In this document: in pieces, positions 901-56,082 of the stretch | Layout: each line of letters opens with the position of its first letter | Position numbering within the stretch: the stretch's first letter is position 1 | NCBI GenBank assembly: GCA_964035575.1 | Contig: OZ037841.1 | Coordinates: 1,302,001 to 1,366,000, forward strand | DNA: 64,000 nt | Source: Rhynchopus sp. YZ270_cl-10 | Taxonomy: Eukaryota | Direction of reading: 5' to 3' | Notes under the pieces: generated by a model | What the model saw: the letters and a program-made list of their open reading frames with translations, nothing else | The model's database searches: none | Told to the model about the DNA's origin: nothing | Program-made: the position numbers and the translations under genes

Positions 901-1304
901 AAGAGAAGGCAGCTTGACAGCAGCGAAGGCGGAGGCTACGGGGAAGACAAGGTATGTAAATGTTTAACTTTCAGTTACTTGTGTAGATGCAAACAACACA
1001 CCCAGTGTTTGCAGCATTTTATTTTCTTGTGTGCTTTCTCTTCTTTGAATCGAAAGTATGTGAACCTTATTACATCATGATACAATGCAACGAGGCCGAA
1101 ACAGCCTCACTAAGGCCTCTGAAAATAAATGTTCAGACTTGGCACTTACTTATGTTTAGGTGCGCCTCAACCACACGCTTGAATATATTTAATTTGCCAC
1201 ACCTCAGATAGATTTTCCAGATATGCCTATGTTCAGGTGTTCCAGGCCTCGTCACAAATAGACAAAAAAACAAAAGCCAAAACAACAGAGAGAGAGCCAA
1301 CAAT

Positions 1305-2460
1305 TTTTTATCTCACTTGTGTAATAATGTTTAGCCGCGTTTTCGAAATTCCTTCCTGGAGATTACACAAAATACAGTAGACATTATCTCCGCACACAAA
1401 GAACAAAACAAAACCCATGCCGAGAGTAGGCGCAAAAGCAATGTGGAGGAGATCTGCGCATGCAACCAAAAGGGTTGCAGTCATAGGACTTCGAGGAACT
1501 GTTCACCATACCCAACCTTGACGCCCCGTACTAGGTGGTCATACATCATTTGTCAAATATACTGTAGGAATTTCGAAAACGCAGCACAACATTATTGCCC
1601 GTGAGATAATAACTATTTATTCGAGTGAAATAAGAACTATTTTATTTCACGCGCCACTAAAAAGGTGCCCGAGTGCGTTATTTCCCGAGCGAAGCGAGGG
1701 GAATAAGAGTGAGAGTCACGAGGGTGCCTTTTTAGTGGCAAGTGCAAGAAAATGTTCTTATTTCACTCAATATGTAATTTTATTCCACAAGTGAAAAACG
1801 TATTTATAGGTGTAAACAGTGGAACGTTGAGCCCACGCTCCACCCCTCACACCACCACACTTCAAATTACAGATTATTTATTGCCTCTTACACACATGCC
1901 TAAACCCACGCGCAAGTTTGCGGAGATGGAGGATGCATATGACAACTTGTTCGACGACATGAACAGTGGTGTGCAGTACAGGAAAACATGGGACGATTTC
2001 CTCCGTTTCAACAGACTTTCAGGAGCGAACGAGCCCAGGGAAGAACACGTCGTGTCCTTCAGATCACTCCGTGATCTTTTATTTCACTCCCCCACCCAAT
2101 CCTTCACGATTTGCGTGAAATAAAACGTGAAATAAAACGAATCTTATTTCACTCACTTTTTCACCTGTTTACGTTTTTCACGCGTGGTATAAAATTACGT
2201 ATCGAAAACTAAAGTGAACATTATTTAACTGATGGGTGATTCACAAACTGGAATACGTGATACCCACTCGCTATCGCTCGTGACATCACTTTTATGATTA
2301 CACTCACTTCACTCATGAAATCAAAATGCTGAACTCCACTCGCTTCGTGAAGTTGAGCCCCAGTTTGAGTCACCCACCACCTCGTGAAATAATGTTCACT
2401 TTATTTCATGAGATAATAATTATCTAACTCAGTGAAATAAAACTCGTGTAATTTTGCAGA
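1305..2460. repeat. Patchwork of short inverted repeats (non-autonomous element debris)
   Basis: For example 1308-1354 vs 1567-1609 (GCGTTTTCGAAATTCC/GGAATTTCGAAAACGC), GCCACTAAAAAGGTGCCC vs GGGTGCCTTTTTAGTGGC, and recurring CACTCGCT(T/A)TCGCTCG-like motifs. Confidence 0.7.
1896..2060 (+). pseudogene. Fragment resembling the core-binding (SAM-like) domain of a Crypton-type tyrosine recombinase
   Basis: MNSGVQYRKTWDDFLRFNRL..EPREEHVVSF fits the S-x3-Y-x3-W-x2-F-x2-F pattern. No catalytic domain follows. Confidence 0.4.
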
Positions 2461-2681
2461 TTATATGCCCTTTGTGTCACTCAATTGTAACCGAGAATGT
2501 AAGGCAGTGAGTATTTGATCTGCCCTTTATGTCGCGAAATACTATGTTTGGTGTTTTGACGTCTTCCAAGCAGATGGATATTCCCTCACTTGCACGCAAT
2601 CTACCGAGGAACCGACTGCCTTTCTCAAAAGCCAGTACATGTCGGGGTGTCGAGGTCCGTGTCAATACAAAGCGGACCAAG

Positions 2682-2810
2682 TCGCTCGAGGTTTGAAAAC
2701 CGCAAGAACTCGTCCCATTTCTTCTTGTACACCTCCTTGCTTCTCATACCCGCTGAGACTTGGTATCCGTAAGTGTCATACATCCTGTCCTTCTTCGTTT
2801 TGGCAGTGTT
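2682..2810 (-). pseudogene. Second, inverted fragment of the same putative recombinase N-terminus
   Basis: Manual translation gives MRSKEVYKKKWDEFLRFSNLER, clearly homologous to the 1896-2060 peptide. Confidence 0.4.
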
Positions 2811-3304
2811 TGAGGGGAGTGATGAAAAAGTTCTTTTTTTTACTGAGTGATTTTTTTAACCAAAAGAAAACCGACGCAGGAGCTTTTCTGGAACTGTTTT
2901 ATTCTCCCCACCCCAACAACATCACATTTCAGAAAAACATTGTTTTTTCGTTTTTGTTCACTTTCTTTTCTTCTCCCTCACACCTGTTTGCTGTGAATTA
3001 AATTTTTTCGTTTCGGCCTGGTCGCAAACGCGAGTTTTCCTGGAAGCGCAGGAAAAATGACTGGGGAGTGTTGGTGGCTCCGTGACGCCACAGAGCCGGC
3101 ACACTCGTTGAGTGCCTCACAAAACCTCAAATTTATTCCGCTTTGATTTCATTTATTGTCTTCACGCTTTATCGTTGTTGTTGGGTTGGGAAATAATATT
3201 TCATTCTCCCATACATTCTCGGTTACAATTGAGTGACAAAAGGGCACATTATCACCCACCTTTGTGGGAATTCACAAAATTACACGAGTTTTATCCACTT
3301 TTTT

Positions 3305-50158: not shown

Positions 50159-50844
50159 TACCCCCTGGCGGAAACCCTGTCTTTGTTTTTTCCCCAAACT
50201 TCTTTCCTAAAGCACAGTCCACCTCCCTCATACTTTTATCTTTCTTTTTGTGGTGGGTCAGGGTCTCCAGCAGCGGTCTCGCAGTGCGGTGTGTTGCTGC
50301 ACCTTGTGTGTTCCCGGTATGTGTGATCCCATGTATCGGGGTGCTGCCTCCCACAGCAGTGGGAACGCTTCGCCTGTGGGACATGACGGGTCGCCTCAGG
50401 GTAGTCTGTGCCATGCGCAGGTACACTGCTATTTTTGGTGGTGAATAATCGTTTTGGGAAGGTGCGCCACTTAGCGAGTAGAGGGCCGACTGCTGTGGAT
50501 ATTGTGGGGGAGGGAATATCTACATCTGTTGGGTGCCGCCACTACTCCTGCTTTTACAGACCTCCTGGGTCAATTCTCGGTGGTGGTGGGTCAGGGTCTC
50601 GATCCTGCTGATTGCCCCTTCCTAAGGCCTTCTGCGGCAGGTGTCCTTAGACAGCCCCTTGGCAAGCTGCGCTATCCGGACTCGAGGCGTTCACGCTCAT
50701 TTCCGTTCCTGCCCGTATGGTGAGCATGATGGCTGAGGCAACTGATTATTCTTCCTCTTCTTGTTGTCCTTCTTCCCACAACACACAAACAGGGACAACA
50801 CACCAACCTCTGTGAATAAACACACCATATTTTCTTTCAGGAAG

Positions 50845-53800
50845 ATGGGATCCGGAGCGTCGAAGCCTGAAAAGGACGAGATTGCAAAAGGAATTACTGG
50901 GAAGGAGAGGCCCGTGGACGCAGTGGACAGCGTGGACGGGAGGACAATGCTGCACAGTGCCGTGCTTGCGGGGGACGTGGAGGCAGTGCGGTTTCTTGTG
51001 GAGAACGGGGCAGGGAACGTGCGTGACAGGGACGGGAAGGTGCCGTTGTGGTACGCACTGCAGCACAGGGACGCGGATGTGCGGGGGCGACTTGAGGCGG
51101 AGCTGGGGGCGCATGCATCAGAGATCCTTGTGGAGGTGGAGGATGCTGTGCAAGTGTACCTCACTGACGGTGTCGCGACAACAACAACAACAACAACAGG
51201 TGTGGCAGTGGAACGGAGCAGTGGAGATGCAACGACAGCACCTCTTACTGACCACATGGCGAAAGACACATCGACTGGAGACAGGCACCTGGGAGAGGAC
51301 GATCTTGACGGGGACACGGGTGCACTGAGGCACACAGACGGACGGAAGGTGGAGTTTCTGCGGAAAACAGAGGACGACAACAACAACAACAGCAATGGAG
51401 GTGAAGACCTGCTGTGCTGGCTGCGTGGTCTGCCAAAGGTTGATCCGCCGTTGGGATACACAGACGAACACGTGCGGCACATGGAGGCGGGGTTCCGTGT
51501 GGTGTGCAAGCGTCTGCTGGAGGACATGAGAGGACGGAGGGAGGCTGCGGGGACACGTGGTGGGCACGTGGAGGTGGAGGACTGGATGGCGGCACGCGAC
51601 CCGTTCGAGCTGCTGCTGTCGGGGTTCCTGTTCACGTCTGACTGCGTGGAGTATGTGCTGGACAGCGGCGGGGATGTTGTGTGCGACGAAAAGGGCACAC
51701 CGCAGATTGCGAAAGGGCCTGATGGGAAGCTGCGGTACATCAGACTGACGGAGCGGGCTGTGCTGGACAACCACGGGAGTGCTGCTGATTCACAGTCGCT
51801 TGCGCTGTACATGACGATGAACACTGCGATGCGTGCTGTGGGGCAGCTGGCTGCGGTGAAGGAGTGGAAGGGGACACCTGAGAAGACAGTACCGAACGTT
51901 TTTGAACTGTCGCCCGCACCCCCGCAGCTGCACGTGCTTGCGACCTTTGCTCCGCTGATCCGTGGTTTGGACCGGCTGATTGGGAGCCGGCGGAAGCAGC
52001 TGCGGACTGTGTTCCGCGGGATCAATGTGAACGTGTCTGCGAAGTACGCTCTTAATACGCACGTTGTGTGGAACTGCTTCACGTCGACAACACTGAAGCG
52101 GGATGTGGCTCGGAGCTTCATGTACGGGAAGGGGGGCACGTTCTTTGTGGTGGTGGCGAAGGAGGGTGCTGCAGACGTTAAGTTCTCGTCTGTGTATGCT
52201 TCGGAGGACGAGCTGCTGTACACAGCGAACATCGAGTACCGTGTGCAGTGGAAGCTTTCGCCGACGCTGCTGCGGATGATGGGGCTGCGCTTTGACGTGA
52301 TTGTGATGCAGGAGGTATGCTCTGGTGTGGGGGAGACGAGTGCGGCTGAGCAGGTGGGTGCGCTGCAGGAGGTGATGGGACACACTGTCGCGTTCTTCGA
52401 GGACTACCTTGCGCAGTACGTGGAGGGGCGTGTGGGGGACGACACACGTGTGGATGAGTCGGAGACACGTCCGCTGATCGAGGAGGTGCGGAGGTGGCTT
52501 CGTGCACGTGGAGGTAGAGGTGGAGGTGGGAAGCAGATGTCTTCCGTGCAGGGAGCAGCAGCGGACACAGAGCGCAAGCTTGATGTGGAGGCGAGAGAAG
52601 AAAGACAAGGAACGTGTGGTGCGCTGTGTGTGATCGGAGAAGGAGGGAGCGGGAAGACGTCTGCGTCGATTGCGATTCTGAGCGACCTTGCAACGTCTGC
52701 GAGGAAGAGCGAAAGCACCAGCAACGAGGACACAACGACAAACAGAAGCAGAAACAGCGTGGTGGGTGATGTGACTGAGGATGCGGATGCGAAGCCATAC
52801 TTCCCTGTGTTTGTGGCGCTGCCGACTGTGAAGCAGCATCTGCTTGAGAAGGGAGGGCTGGACAGGTTTGTGCTGGAGTCGTTTGCGCTGCGGGAGGCGG
52901 ACCGTGCGTACCTTGCGGAGACGTACGAGGTGGTGCTGGTGCTGGACTCGCTGGACGAGGTGGGGCTGACGCAGAAGGATGTGGGTGCTGTGGTGGCTGA
53001 GGGTGGCCTTCTGTGCCGGCACCAGTGGGTGGAGGCACACTGCAGCGTTGTTGTGACTGTGCGTGGTGAGTACCTGAAGGGTGTGGACACGTCTCCGTCT
53101 GGTGTGTGTGGGGCTGGTGTGCGTGCTCTGTACATGCAGCCGTTCACAGAGGTGGATGCGAGAACGTACATCAAGCGTGCAAACACAGCCTGGGAGAAGG
53201 AACACAAAAAGGAGAAGTCAGCCCAGAAGGAAGAGCGCACAGTCTTCGTGCGTGAGGAGGACGTTGAGGGACTTGTGCAGCTGCGGAACCCGTTTGTGCT
53301 GCACATGGCGTGCCACGCGCAGTGCAGCGGGAAGGCTTCTGAGGAGGTGATCTACGAGACCTACCTCGACACGTGGACGAAGAAGGAGATGGCGTCTGGA
53401 GGAGTTGCTGTTGCTGTTTCGGATGTGTCTTTGGAGGATGTGGTGCGTGCAGGGGAGCTTGTTGCATGCAGGATGCTGGAGACAAACGAGTGGCAGGGGA
53501 CTGTGGGTGTGGCGTCGGAGGTTCTTGTGTCGCAGCACGGTGTGTGTGAGGCTGTGCGGGATGCGTGCTTCCGTTGCCTGCCTTTCCGAATTGAGGACTT
53601 TGGGGAGGAGCGGAGTGCGTTCACGTTCCGGCACAAGTCGCTTGGGGAGCACCTTGCAGCACGGCGGCTTGCACGTGATCCAGCAGGGACACTGGGGACG
53701 CTAGTGCAGCGGAGCTTCAGCAAGGACTCGCAGCGTGTGCTTGGGTTCTTTGCGGCGCTGGTGTGTGGAGACAGTGGGCTGTACGAACGTGCCTGCACAG

Positions 53801-56082
53801 AGCTGCTTGCGGCTGTGAAGGCGACAAGGCGCGGAAGTGCGGGTGGAGGTGACGATGGAGATGCAGGTGTTGGTGGGGAGGGTGCTGTGACAGCAGGGTC
53901 GAATGCAGCAGCACTGCTGGCACGTGCACGCATCCCTGTGAGTGGGGAGGACCTGACCGGGATCCGTGTGTCGAACTGCGACCTGCGCGGGTCTCTGTTT
54001 GTGGAGACGGCGCTGACGGGTGCTTCCTTCTCGAACTGCTGGCTGGAGCACACTGAGTTCAACACCTGCGACATGGGTGGCACGATGCTGCCTGACTGCT
54101 CACTTGGCACACCACTTCCTGTACTGCAACATGAAGCCTCTGCTGTGGCAGTGACACCTGATGGTAGTCAAATGGTTACAAGTGGCCACGACGGCAGTGT
54201 ACATGTGTGGAGTATGTCTTCTGGGGAAGAAGTTATGGTCTTGGATGCAAAGGTGGATTCATATTGCAAACAAATCAATGGAGTAGCATTAACACCTGAC
54301 GGAACCCGTGTGGTTGCGTGCTCCGCTGACACAACTGTGCGTGTGTGGGATATGCACACTGGGGAGGCAGTGTTCGTCTTGGAAGGCCACACATGTCGTG
54401 TGCTCGAAGTAGCAGTCACTCCTGATAGTTCTAAAGCTGTTTCAACTTCTCGTGATGACGGCATCCGTGTGTGGGATCTCTTGACGGGGATCGAAGTGCT
54501 GGCAATAAAGTCGCCTGATATTCTCAGCATGGTTATTACCAAGGATGGAAGTCAAATAGTGACATGCTCTAAGGATGTGCTTTGCGTATGGGATCTGGTC
54601 ACGGGGAAGCAGGAGATGCAGTGGCCTTGTTGTATGAAGTCTTCGCATGCACTGGCAGTCACTCCCGATGGATGCCATGTTGTTTCGTGCTCTGATGGCG
54701 CACATCTTTGGAACCTCTCCACTGGGGCAGAGGTGATGGTGTTCCATGCCGACGAGTTGACAGCAGTGGCAGTCGCTCCCGATGGATGTCACGTGGTTGC
54801 TGGATCCGAGAGCGGCAATGTGCACGTTTGGAGCATTTCGACTGGGAAGGAGGTGACGGTGTTGCAAGGGCATACTTCTGAGGTGAGTGCAGTGGCAGTG
54901 TCACCAGATGGATGCCACGTGGTTTCATGCGACAGCTGCTTCTTCGGTACTGTTCGAGTGTGGAACATCACGACCGGGAAGGAGACACCAGGTTTCGAAG
55001 GAGTCTTAGGCAATTCTGTGGCAGTGGCCCCCGATGGATCTATCATTTCGAACGGTGGGAAGATGAGGTCCATCTGGAACGCATCCACCGGCAGGCAGAC
55101 ACAGGTAGTTGAAGCAGGAACATGTCAACGTACTGCGGTGTCCCCAGATGGATCTCATGTAGTTTATTTCTCTTGCGACGACGCTGGCGAAACGAGAGCG
55201 TGTGTGTGGGACGTTGCGACGGGGAAAGTGCGGCCTTTGTGCACAGATTCCAGTACGTTTGCGGTGTTCTTGAAACAGTCTATAACACTTCATTTCTTAG
55301 CAGTGTCTCCCGATGCATCTCACGTGGTGACCTGCTCACAGTCTTCACAGGAGACAGACACTTACTATACGCCTGGCATGCTCGAGTGGGAAGACACTTG
55401 CGATACGTATGTGTGGAGCATGACGACTGGGAAGAAGGTGTCAGTATATGCAGGAACTGAACGCTGTACTACTTGGCCTCCCGGCGGAGTGGTAGTGACT
55501 GCTGATGGAGTGCATGTGGTTTCGTACTATCGTGGTGGCCGTTCGGTACACATGTGGAAACTTCACACGGGAACAGAGACGATGGTGTTCAAAGGACATA
55601 CTGCTAACGTCTACGACGTGGCGGTGACTCGCGATGGATCTCGTATTGTTTCAGGGTCTGACGACAAAACTGTGCGTGTGTGGGATGTTGCCAGCGGGAA
55701 GGAGGTCTTCACCTTGCAGCATGATGCACACGTGCACCCAGTTGCACTGACACCTGACGGAGCTCACGTGATATCGTTGTGTGGCGGTTCTATGAGTGTG
55801 TGGAGCATGACCACTGGTGAGAAGGTGGCAGTGATGACGCCACATTGTAATCTGAACAGCGTTGCTGTGAGCCCTGATGGATGCGAAGTGGTCTGTAGTT
55901 GTGAGGACAAAAGTGTGCGTGTGTGGACCATCTGCACTAGGGAAGACGGCACGATTGGTGGGTTGCGGCTGAAGAGAGTGATCGGTGTCCCTCCAACAGT
56001 TCCTCGTGTATTTGGCTGTCGCAATGCTGATGCTGTGGAACCTGAACTTGCGAGACGGATTATTTGTCCTGTCGAGAAGTGA
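50845..56082 (+). CDS. NLR-like STAND protein: MGxxxS motif, ankyrins, ADP-ribosyltransferase (R-S-E), NACHT, pentapeptide repeats, WD40 repeats
   Basis: MGSGASK; GRTMLHSAVLAGD; VFRG / FTSTT / SEDELL; Walker A GEGGSGKT; Walker B VLVLDSLDE; FTFRHKSLGEHLAA; DLTGIRVSNCDLRGSLF; about 13-14 WD40 repeats. Confidence 0.92.
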   Translation: MGSGASKPEKDEIAKGITGKERPVDAVDSVDGRTMLHSAVLAGDVEAVRFLVENGAGNVRDRDGKVPLWYALQHRDADVRGRLEAELGAHASEILVEVEDAVQVYLTDGVATTTTTTTGVAVERSSGDATTAPLTDHMAKDTSTGDRHLGEDDLDGDTGALRHTDGRKVEFLRKTEDDNNNNSNGGEDLLCWLRGLPKVDPPLGYTDEHVRHMEAGFRVVCKRLLEDMRGRREAAGTRGGHVEVEDWMAARDPFELLLSGFLFTSDCVEYVLDSGGDVVCDEKGTPQIAKGPDGKLRYIRLTERAVLDNHGSAADSQSLALYMTMNTAMRAVGQLAAVKEWKGTPEKTVPNVFELSPAPPQLHVLATFAPLIRGLDRLIGSRRKQLRTVFRGINVNVSAKYALNTHVVWNCFTSTTLKRDVARSFMYGKGGTFFVVVAKEGAADVKFSSVYASEDELLYTANIEYRVQWKLSPTLLRMMGLRFDVIVMQEVCSGVGETSAAEQVGALQEVMGHTVAFFEDYLAQYVEGRVGDDTRVDESETRPLIEEVRRWLRARGGRGGGGKQMSSVQGAAADTERKLDVEAREERQGTCGALCVIGEGGSGKTSASIAILSDLATSARKSESTSNEDTTTNRSRNSVVGDVTEDADAKPYFPVFVALPTVKQHLLEKGGLDRFVLESFALREADRAYLAETYEVVLVLDSLDEVGLTQKDVGAVVAEGGLLCRHQWVEAHCSVVVTVRGEYLKGVDTSPSGVCGAGVRALYMQPFTEVDARTYIKRANTAWEKEHKKEKSAQKEERTVFVREEDVEGLVQLRNPFVLHMACHAQCSGKASEEVIYETYLDTWTKKEMASGGVAVAVSDVSLEDVVRAGELVACRMLETNEWQGTVGVASEVLVSQHGVCEAVRDACFRCLPFRIEDFGEERSAFTFRHKSLGEHLAARRLARDPAGTLGTLVQRSFSKDSQRVLGFFAALVCGDSGLYERACTELLAAVKATRRGSAGGGDDGDAGVGGEGAVTAGSNAAALLARARIPVSGEDLTGIRVSNCDLRGSLFVETALTGASFSNCWLEHTEFNTCDMGGTMLPDCSLGTPLPVLQHEASAVAVTPDGSQMVTSGHDGSVHVWSMSSGEEVMVLDAKVDSYCKQINGVALTPDGTRVVACSADTTVRVWDMHTGEAVFVLEGHTCRVLEVAVTPDSSKAVSTSRDDGIRVWDLLTGIEVLAIKSPDILSMVITKDGSQIVTCSKDVLCVWDLVTGKQEMQWPCCMKSSHALAVTPDGCHVVSCSDGAHLWNLSTGAEVMVFHADELTAVAVAPDGCHVVAGSESGNVHVWSISTGKEVTVLQGHTSEVSAVAVSPDGCHVVSCDSCFFGTVRVWNITTGKETPGFEGVLGNSVAVAPDGSIISNGGKMRSIWNASTGRQTQVVEAGTCQRTAVSPDGSHVVYFSCDDAGETRACVWDVATGKVRPLCTDSSTFAVFLKQSITLHFLAVSPDASHVVTCSQSSQETDTYYTPGMLEWEDTCDTYVWSMTTGKKVSVYAGTERCTTWPPGGVVVTADGVHVVSYYRGGRSVHMWKLHTGTETMVFKGHTANVYDVAVTRDGSRIVSGSDDKTVRVWDVASGKEVFTLQHDAHVHPVALTPDGAHVISLCGGSMSVWSMTTGEKVAVMTPHCNLNSVAVSPDGCEVVCSCEDKSVRVWTICTREDGTIGGLRLKRVIGVPPTVPRVFGCRNADAVEPELARRIICPVEK

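What the first reader, a model, noticed from the sequence alone, without database searches (positions are those of the whole stretch)
50845..56082. NLR-like receptor with an intact ADP-ribosyltransferase domain and a myristoylation motif
Seen: between short ankyrins and the NACHT lies a full cholera-toxin-type ART signature, R (VFRG, 52009-52020), S-T-T (52078-52092) and E-x-E (52204-52212). After it come intact Walker A (52636-52659), Walker B, a winged-helix FxHxS motif, pentapeptide repeats and about 14 WD40s. The first ATG gives MGSGAS. Established: effector-NACHT-WD40 is the layout of fungal HNWD and bacterial STAND immune receptors, ExE usually marks arginine-specific ARTs, and MGxxxS is the N-myristoylation consensus. 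Inference: a membrane-anchored sensor whose oligomerisation switches on ADP-ribosylation or NAD+ depletion. I do not know ART as a characterised NLR effector in a protist.
Basis: partly seen in the sequence, partly recalled or inferred. Interest (0 to 1): 0.87.

Follow-up and report, generated by a model that had tools for sequence, protein, structure and literature searches.

The report
Protist NLR-like receptors with ADP-ribosyltransferase output
This gene joins an ADP-ribosyltransferase-fold domain, a NACHT switch and a WD40 propeller, and has dozens of near-copies whose enzyme part is almost invariant while a few propeller positions are hypervariable, so it is likely an immune-type receptor family of single-celled euglenozoans that would ADP-ribosylate proteins on sensing a foreign molecule.

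Summary
Observation confirmed. One uninterrupted 1745-aa ORF (50845-56082, +) encodes MGSGASK, ankyrins, an ART, a NACHT module, pentapeptide repeats and 14 WD40 blades. The ART passes Pfam's cut-off and models (pLDDT 94) as a cholera-toxin-like ART (Z 15 to HopU1 and ART2.2) with R-S-ExE intact.

New here: 59 relatives at 91-98% identity in the ART region. Across the 60, the ART core is 97.7% identical and the WD40 part 70%. Variation piles onto three positions per blade (21% identity against 87% on the opposite loop), with the spacing of the selected codons of fungal HET-E. ART directly followed by this NACHT occurs in 64 of 150 distant hits; all 13 named among 20 looked up are Euglenozoa (diplonemids, prokinetoplastids, Euglena), with WD40, LRR or TPR sensors.

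Limits: no activity, ligand, RNA or true dN/dS. The myristoylation motif belongs to one subfamily only. No effector-swapped paralogue was found. A rotifer cluster also pairs ART, TIR and NACHT (lead only). Eight novelty searches found no description. This scan noted the family once before, from a fragment on other DNA.

Verdict: new variant of NLR-like STAND receptor; immune role likely, untested.

The parts
50830..50840 (+). Pyrimidine tract ending in AG, 4 nt before the ATG; likely splice acceptor (spliced-leader or cis)
   Evidence: Sequence; function inferred, no RNA seen
50845..56082 (+). Single-ORF gene, 1745 aa (P0001): ANK-ART-NACHT-pentapeptide-WD40
50845..50865 (+). MGSGASK, predicted N-myristoylation signal (Gly2, Ser6, Lys7; consensus recalled)
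   Evidence: Motif present in 57 of 60 close copies, at the start or after a variable upstream extension
50935..51078 (+). About two ankyrin repeats (aa 31-78)
   Evidence: Pfam Ank_4 E 1e-9, Ank_2 above cut-off
51115..51399 (+). Low-complexity linker (aa 91-185)
   Evidence: Thr and Asn runs in the sequence; 84% mean identity among close copies
51400..52320 (+). Cholera-toxin-like (ARTC) ADP-ribosyltransferase domain, aa 186-492; R391, S414, ARTT loop Y451-x-x-E454-x-E456
   Evidence: Pfam ART above cut-off; AF2 pLDDT 94.2; Foldseek and VIA-align
52387..53724 (+). NACHT module (NBD-HD1-WHD): Walker A 52636-52659, Walker B 52936-52959, sensor-1 Arg motif 53050-53064, WHD FRHKS 53626-53640
   Evidence: Family profile hits NLRP6, NLRP2, NLRP7, NLRC4, NLRP3; HHalign 98.3% to a SIR2-NACHT-pentapeptide-WD40 protein; positions
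53725..53949 (+). Linker after the winged helix, likely HD2-like
   Evidence: Conserved in homologues; no Pfam match; assignment inferred
53953..54093 (+). Pentapeptide repeats (aa 1037-1083)
   Evidence: Pfam PF00805 above cut-off
54112..55944 (+). 14 WD40 blades (predicted two 7-bladed propellers); hypervariable positions at offsets -8, -7, -5 and +11 from the first residue of the TPDG-type turn

Best explanation
The gene encodes a NACHT protein with an intact R-S-ExE ART-fold domain in front and a 14-blade WD40 region behind, and it is likely an NLR-like non-self receptor whose WD40 face would bind a foreign or modified protein and whose ART would then ADP-ribosylate arginines of host targets. 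Proposed order: (1) myristoylation tethers the closed protein to a membrane (predicted from motif); (2) the variable WD40 positions bind a ligand from a virus, endosymbiont, prey bacterium or parasite (hypervariability shown, ligand unknown); (3) nucleotide exchange and ring assembly follow (inferred from NLRs; catalytic motifs shown intact); (4) clustered ART domains modify a conserved host target, giving arrest, death or a defence signal (fold and triad shown, activity and target inferred). One conserved output serves dozens of specificities.
For: ART fold: pLDDT 94.2, pTM 0.90; VIA-align Z 15.2, rmsd 3.9, 207 aligned to HopU1 and Z 14.8, rmsd 3.0, 190 aligned to ART2.2, with ART-fold entries in the top 19 rows. 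ExE marks arginine specificity (PMC3102197, passages); the ARTT loop pattern fits (PMC8120803, passage). Expansion: 59 other clusters at 91-98% identity over aa 190-560, 27 of them listing the same 1,539,504-base contig length. Mean identity among the 60: ART core 97.7%, NACHT 93.4%, WD40 70.3%. Offsets -7, -5, +11: 2.92 bits against 0.43 on the a-b loop; identity 0.21 against 0.87, and below the low-complexity linker at 0.84; 34 of the 42 most variable columns lie at -8, -7, -5, +11. The spacing -7/-5/+11/+13 equals HET-E's selected codons 7/9/25/27 on the propeller top (PMC1805685, passages). Repeated in a separate subfamily, P0069 against P0068: ART 90%, WD frame 75%, these positions 1 of 35 identical. 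In blade 7, 17 of 27 variant rows fall in codons -8, -7, -5, 14 of them at codon positions 1-2. 64 of 150 distant hits have ART then NACHT, and 52 of 64 keep R, S and ExE; sensors include WD40, LRR and TPR.
Against: No activity, ligand, phenotype or RNA for this gene. No codon alignment of paralogues, so no real dN/dS; one search covers one blade in one run. The 90% clustering favours copies with diverged WD40s and so inflates the overall contrast, though it does not explain the position pattern. Whether the 59 relatives lie in this same assembly could not be checked. Three relatives have a degenerate ART triad (P0066, P0082, P0084). Myristoylation motif at the start in only 7 of 64 ART-NACHT representatives against 4 of 86 other ART hits. 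Some ART-NACHT proteins carry RCC1, SAM, PDZ, EEP or ANF-receptor domains, which fits general signalling as well as defence.
Confidence: 0.6

Rival explanations
1. Same sensor and switch, but the output is NAD+ hydrolysis, or transfer to a small molecule or nucleic acid, rather than protein arginine modification. It would work like SIR2-, TIR- or TeTIR-NACHT NADases.
For: The most similar non-ART chassis found carries a SIR2 domain in front of NACHT-pentapeptide-WD40 (P0228). TEP1-type TeTIR-NACHT-WD40 proteins are NADases (10.64898/2026.09.21.753143, abstract). Seven of 64 ART-NACHT relatives have Q at the first ARTT position, and rat ART2 with QxE is an NAD+ hydrolase.
Against: This protein and 60 of 60 close copies have ExE, the arginine-transfer signature.
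Confidence: 0.17
2. The family recognises conspecific molecules (allorecognition, mating or kin discrimination, or guarding of a self protein), as fungal het-d and het-e do, not foreign invaders.
For: The best-matching selection pattern is that of fungal allorecognition genes.
Against: Dozens of divergent paralogues with 57 different variable-position codes among 58 suit a broad repertoire better than a few allelic loci. Blades within one protein are only 27-29% identical, unlike het-e.
Confidence: 0.12
3. A non-defence signalling enzyme (environment, prey or cytoskeleton regulation) whose copy number rose by tandem duplication and whose WD40 loops drift.
For: Varied accessory domains in distant members; truncated and rearranged copies exist (P0005, P0062, P0066, P0220-P0223); WD40 surface loops tolerate change in general (own knowledge).
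Against: The variable positions are far more diverse than the low-complexity linker of the same genes (0.21 against 0.84) and than the opposite-face loop (0.87), which drift does not predict.
Confidence: 0.08
4. An offensive toxin delivered to prey or competitors, with the WD40 part as a target-finding module.
For: Many of the closest solved folds are bacterial effectors.
Against: The N-terminus reads as a lipid-anchor motif, not a signal peptide (by inspection; no predictor run); the NACHT switch is intact; identity to those effectors is only 11-21%.
Confidence: 0.03

Closest known systems
Fungal HNWD/NWD NLRs (Podospora HET-D, HET-E)
   Same: Effector-NACHT-WD40 layout; multigene family; hypervariable residues with the same spacing as codons 7, 9, 25, 27.
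   Different: ART instead of HET effector; pentapeptide segment; blades within a protein 27-29% identical rather than near-identical; diversity lies between paralogues at equivalent blades; unicellular host.
Prokaryotic NACHT-pentapeptide-WD40 proteins with SIR2 or other effectors (bNACHT/Avs type; P0228)
   Same: NBD-HD1-WHD aligns over 324 columns including the FxHKS motif (HHalign 98.3%); same pentapeptide-WD40 tail; NAD+-using effector.
   Different: SIR2 plus inactive REase instead of ART; 19% identity; P0228's organism is not shown (prokaryotic origin inferred from its domains); no PADLOC model matched this protein's ART or NACHT part.
TEP1/NWD TeTIR-NACHT-WD40 NADases
   Same: NAD+-consuming domain directly upstream of NACHT, with C-terminal WD40 or TPR (abstract).
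   Different: TIR-like fold and a hydrolase; five human proteins (passage), not an expanded hypervariable family as seen here.
Arginine-specific ARTC enzymes (ART2.2, HopU1, Vis, ExoS)
   Same: Fold, R-S-ExE triad and ARTT loop.
   Different: Those are ecto-enzymes or delivered effectors; here the domain sits inside a NACHT receptor, has a hairpin insertion and 11-21% identity.
Rotifer-dominated ESM Atlas cluster with NACHT (100%), TIR_2 (81%) and ART (79%), 68 members
   Same: ART and NACHT in one protein.
   Different: Carries TIR, about 807 aa; score 0.87 is a lead only; domain order, homology and any description were not checked.

Membership tests
NLR-like STAND receptor (NACHT clade) | Central NACHT module (NBD-HD1-WHD) | tested here: met
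   Family profile hits NLRP6 (8e-7), NLRP2, NLRP7, NLRC4, NLRP3, up to about 400 positions; homologues P0080 and P0096 reach the Pfam NACHT cut-off; this protein alone does not
NLR-like STAND receptor (NACHT clade) | Intact Walker A, Walker B, sensor-1 and WHD His | tested here: met
   K604, D701, D704, E705, H930 in 60 of 60; R740 in 59 of 60
NLR-like STAND receptor (NACHT clade) | N-terminal effector and C-terminal repeat sensor | tested here: met
   ART upstream, 14 WD40 downstream; LRR and TPR in relatives
NLR-like STAND receptor (NACHT clade) | Diversifying selection on the sensor surface | tested here: inconclusive
   Strong at protein level, qualitative at codon level for one blade; no dN/dS model could be run
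NLR-like STAND receptor (NACHT clade) | Ligand-induced oligomerisation and a defence or death response | not testable with these tools
   Needs biochemistry and cells
Arginine-specific ARTC | ARTC fold | tested here: met
   Z 15.2 and 14.8; Foldseek E 1.4e-8
Arginine-specific ARTC | R-S-ExE triad and aromatic-x-x-E-x-E loop | tested here: met
   R391, S414, Y451, E454, E456; definitions
Arginine-specific ARTC | Transfers ADP-ribose to arginine | not testable with these tools
   No assay
Fungal HNWD | N-terminal HET domain | tested here: not met
   The N-terminal region is ankyrin plus ART
Fungal HNWD | Near-identical WD repeats within a protein (concerted evolution) | tested here: not met
   Mean 0.27-0.29, maximum 0.53; higher in relatives P0069 (0.56) and P0078 (0.52)
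N-myristoylated proteins | Gly2 with Ser6 (and Lys7) at the true start | tested here: met
   First ATG of the frame, after a pyrimidine tract and AG; 57 of 60 close copies; MG starts in transcriptome-derived P0074 and P0154. Consensus recalled.
N-myristoylated proteins | Lipidation and membrane localisation | not testable with these tools
   No assay

The most novel reading that the evidence does not exclude
Euglenozoa have their own ancient NLR-like immune system built on an ART-NACHT core. It predates the split of diplonemids, kinetoplastids and euglenids, swaps WD40, LRR and TPR sensors, and in this organism has grown into a clustered repertoire of 60 or more receptors under arms-race selection, using arginine ADP-ribosylation as an effector chemistry not yet characterised for any NLR.
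Probability: 0.5. Interest if true: 0.9.

Novelty: new variant of a known kind. Interest (0 to 1): 0.78.

Why it matters
Little is known about how free-living protists detect intracellular invaders (own knowledge). This family gives a testable candidate: a defined enzyme output with catalytic residues to mutate, a defined variable sensor face, and a homologue in Diplonema papillatum (KAJ9461234.1, annotated only as a WD-repeat protein), a laboratory model species. If active, it adds ADP-ribosylation to the effector chemistries of NLR-like receptors, beside TIR/SIR2 NADases, nucleases and pore formers. It would also place arginine-specific ARTs in unicellular eukaryotes, where a 2010 review thought them lacking (PMC3102197). 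The match to the HET-E selection pattern suggests convergent use of the same propeller positions.

Tried and rejected
Single-sequence AlphaFold of the ART was uninformative (pLDDT 33), and single-sequence phmmer against PDB gave one irrelevant hit; both were resolved with alignments. No whole genome is held, so no genome-wide count or synteny. No RNA holder listed; the possible RNA run X7 laid nothing; neither is evidence on expression. Summed contig depth was not used as copy number. PADLOC and NCBIfam gave nothing for the ART or NACHT parts. Scans of prokaryote genomes and JGI metagenomes confirmed no relative (0 of 27 and 0 of 108 pattern matches); they find close relatives only. The NACHT-region search found no paralogue with another effector (lengths 959-3054 only, top 7985 candidates scored). 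No second copy lies in the window. The tree is a quick one with long branches; it places this protein in a clade with Diplonema, Lacrimia and Hpha sequences but is not used for an order of events. A per-blade nearest-neighbour test suggests mosaic WD40s but is too noisy to claim recombination. A NACHT homodimer prediction was not run, so oligomerisation is untested. Opposite-strand ORFs over the gene were treated as shadows of the GC-rich coding frame and not searched.

Full report
Observation. The window holds one open frame from 50746 to 56082 on the + strand; its first ATG is at 50845 and gives 1745 aa starting MGSGASK. A pyrimidine tract and AG end 4 nt upstream. Pfam gives ART above its cut-off for aa 186-515 (28.8 bits against 22.3), NACHT only weakly (E 0.018, below cut-off) and WD40 strongly; ankyrin and pentapeptide pass their cut-offs. 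Fourteen WD blades can be counted.

The ART domain. A single-sequence model failed (pLDDT 33). With a 51-sequence alignment the model reached pLDDT 94.2 and pTM 0.90. Foldseek's best matches are ARTC enzymes (E 1.4e-8). VIA-align against 48,161 chains gives Z 15.2 (rmsd 3.9, 207 aligned) for HopU1 and 14.8 (rmsd 3.0, 190 aligned) for vertebrate ART2.2; unrelated folds lie near Z 4 or below. The match starts at model residue 1, so the domain spans about 51400-52320. The triad is R391, S414, E454-x-E456 with Y451 in the ARTT loop. ExE is described as the arginine-specific signature (PMC3102197, passages) and the loop pattern as aromatic-x-x-E/Q-x-E (PMC8120803, passages). A shared fold and motif do not show activity.

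The switch. A profile of 27 ART-plus-NTPase sequences hits ART2, HopU1 and Vis with its first part and NLRP6, NLRP2, NLRP7, NLRC4 and NLRP3 with its second; dynein and RFC match only around Walker A. It aligns over 324 columns, through the winged-helix FxHKS motif, with P0228, a SIR2-iREase-NACHT-pentapeptide-WD40 protein (probability 98.3%), probably prokaryotic though its organism is not shown. So this is a divergent but intact NACHT module.

The expansion. A search with aa 190-560 returned 75 proteins among 4219 candidates; 59 besides this one are 91-98% identical there, yet each is a separate 90% cluster. Of these 59, 27 list a longest contig of 1,539,504 bases, 7 of 1,020,051 and 6 of 798,917, which I read as gene clusters. 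The records are unnamed and no genome is held, so it is not shown that they share this assembly. The window has one copy. Mean pairwise identity among the 60 is 97.7% in the ART core, 93.4% in NACHT and 70.3% in WD40. Ten catalytic and switch residues are invariant in 60 of 60.

Where the variation lies. Counting from the first residue of the TPDG-type turn of each blade, offsets -7, -5 and +11 average 2.92 bits against 0.43 for the a-b loop. Pairwise identity is 0.21 against 0.87, and 0.84 in the low-complexity linker. Of the 42 most variable columns in the protein, 34 are at -8, -7, -5 or +11; +13 is raised less (1.8 bits). The offsets were picked after seeing the profile, so the test is descriptive. 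In Podospora HET-D/E, codons 7, 9, 25 and 27 of each repeat are under positive selection and map to the propeller top (PMC1805685, passages); the spacing 2-16-2 equals -7, -5, +11, +13 here. I did not model the propeller; the top-face assignment is by that analogy. A separate subfamily repeats the pattern: P0069 and P0068 are 90% identical in ART and 75% in the WD frame, but 1 of 35 at these positions. Contigs of run X1 laid on blade 7 show all four bases at positions 1 and 2 of codons -8 and -7 and none in the codon between -7 and -5. Of 27 variant rows up to 54900, 20 are at codon positions 1-2; I left out 8 rows at 54931-54935, where alignments are gapped. This is qualitative. The 90% clustering biases the set towards diverged WD40s. 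Unlike HET-E, blades within one protein are only 27-29% identical.

Range. phmmer of the ART against 1.84 billion representatives gave 164 hits, 150 listed. In 64 of the 150 the ART is followed within 260 aa by the same NTPase, and 52 of the 64 keep R, S and ExE. Pfam scans of 62 of the longer hits show WD40, BspA-type LRR, LRR_6 or TPR after the NACHT, and SAM, RCC1, EEP or ANF-receptor domains before the ART. Of 20 such proteins looked up, 13 carry organism names: Diplonema papillatum, Lacrimia (4), Namystynia (3), Artemidia, Flectonema, Papus, Apiculatamorpha and Euglena gracilis; 7 are unnamed. Taxonomy confirms Lacrimia, Namystynia and Artemidia as diplonemids and Papus and Apiculatamorpha as prokinetoplastids; Flectonema was not found under that name, and its placement, like that of Diplonema and Euglena, is recalled. 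Twelve of the 13 are EukProt records with transcript-assembly names, so relatives are expressed. The window's host is therefore likely a diplonemid; its Pfam-positive genes all lie on the + strand. A NACHT-region search found no paralogue with another effector (71 hits, all already found with the ART). P0066, P0082 and P0084 have degenerate ART motifs. The ESM Atlas lists a 68-member, mostly rotifer cluster with NACHT, TIR_2 and ART (score 0.87, a lead), so ART with NACHT is probably not confined to Euglenozoa.

Myristoylation. The motif is in 57 of 60 close copies and in 13 of 20 nearer relatives checked, within the first 200 aa by a loose pattern. At the very start it is in only 7 of 64 ART-NACHT representatives against 4 of 86 other ART hits. 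It is a feature of the ankyrin-bearing subfamily and a few others. Predicted starts are unreliable, and lipidation is untested.

Mechanism. Shown: architecture, fold, intact motifs, expansion, and the position pattern of variation. Inferred: membrane tether, ligand binding, ring assembly and ADP-ribosylation of a host target. I put 0.6 on a non-self receptor with arginine ADP-ribosylation as output, 0.17 on an NAD+-depleting output, 0.12 on conspecific recognition, 0.08 on non-defence signalling and 0.03 on an exported toxin.

Literature. Eight searches aimed at novelty (listings and abstract starts) showed no paper on ART-NACHT proteins; two further searches served citations. Term searches in main texts found no ADP-ribosyl mention in Kibby et al. 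(10.1101/2022.07.19.500537; supplement closed), the 2026 Avs survey (PMC13581612; 7 supplements also none), the fungal NLR effector survey (PMC9815663), the D. papillatum and E. gracilis genome papers (PMC10161547, PMC6366073) or a bdelloid defence paper (PMC11258130). Passages of PMC8195603 and PMC7159879 mention ART and NACHT separately. The D. papillatum supplement lists two orthogroups as 'NACHT domain-containing protein' among diplonemid gains, one with 26 copies in Hpha, with no ADP-ribosyltransferase term; whether they are this family is unchecked. The TeTIR preprint (abstract and passages) is the nearest functional parallel. The Aravind 2015 ART review is not held, and most subscription papers are not searched.

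Verdict. A real, intact member of an apparently undescribed euglenozoan family of ART-NACHT-sensor proteins, here expanded and diversified like an immune-receptor repertoire. It works like an NLR by architecture and evolution and is not an HNWD. New variant of a known kind; interest 0.78.

Noticed in passing
window:44862-45414: Rfam match to the 5' part of eukaryotic LSU rRNA (98.4 bits) between protein genes; looks like a decayed rRNA fragment.
   Followed up: no
window:16355-17023: Short ORF with a weak Helitron_like_N match (E 2e-6, just under cut-off); possible transposon remnant.
   Followed up: no
window:38249-39949: ORF with ubiquitin-like domain, possible zinc ribbon and BspA-type LRRs; BspA LRRs also serve as the sensor in ART-NACHT relative P0090.
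   Followed up: no
window:30124-32499: ORF with ankyrin repeats and DUF4246.
   Followed up: no
window:56645-59607: Downstream of the gene: short tandem repeats, a repeat-rich 492-aa frame without Pfam match and a 25-base A run; may be the end of a repeat element.
   Followed up: no
P0131, P0215: WGR and PARP-regulatory domains fused to an ARTC-type (PF01129) catalytic domain instead of a PARP catalytic domain; organisms not looked up.
   Followed up: no
P0062, P0066, P0082, P0084: Rearranged or degenerate family members: tripled WHD-pentapeptide-WD40 block, WD40-first order, and full-length receptors with a decayed ART triad, possibly sensor-only partners.
   Followed up: partly
ESM Atlas: Rotifer-dominated cluster combining NACHT, TIR_2 and ART; a possible second, animal case of ART in NACHT proteins.
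   Followed up: partly
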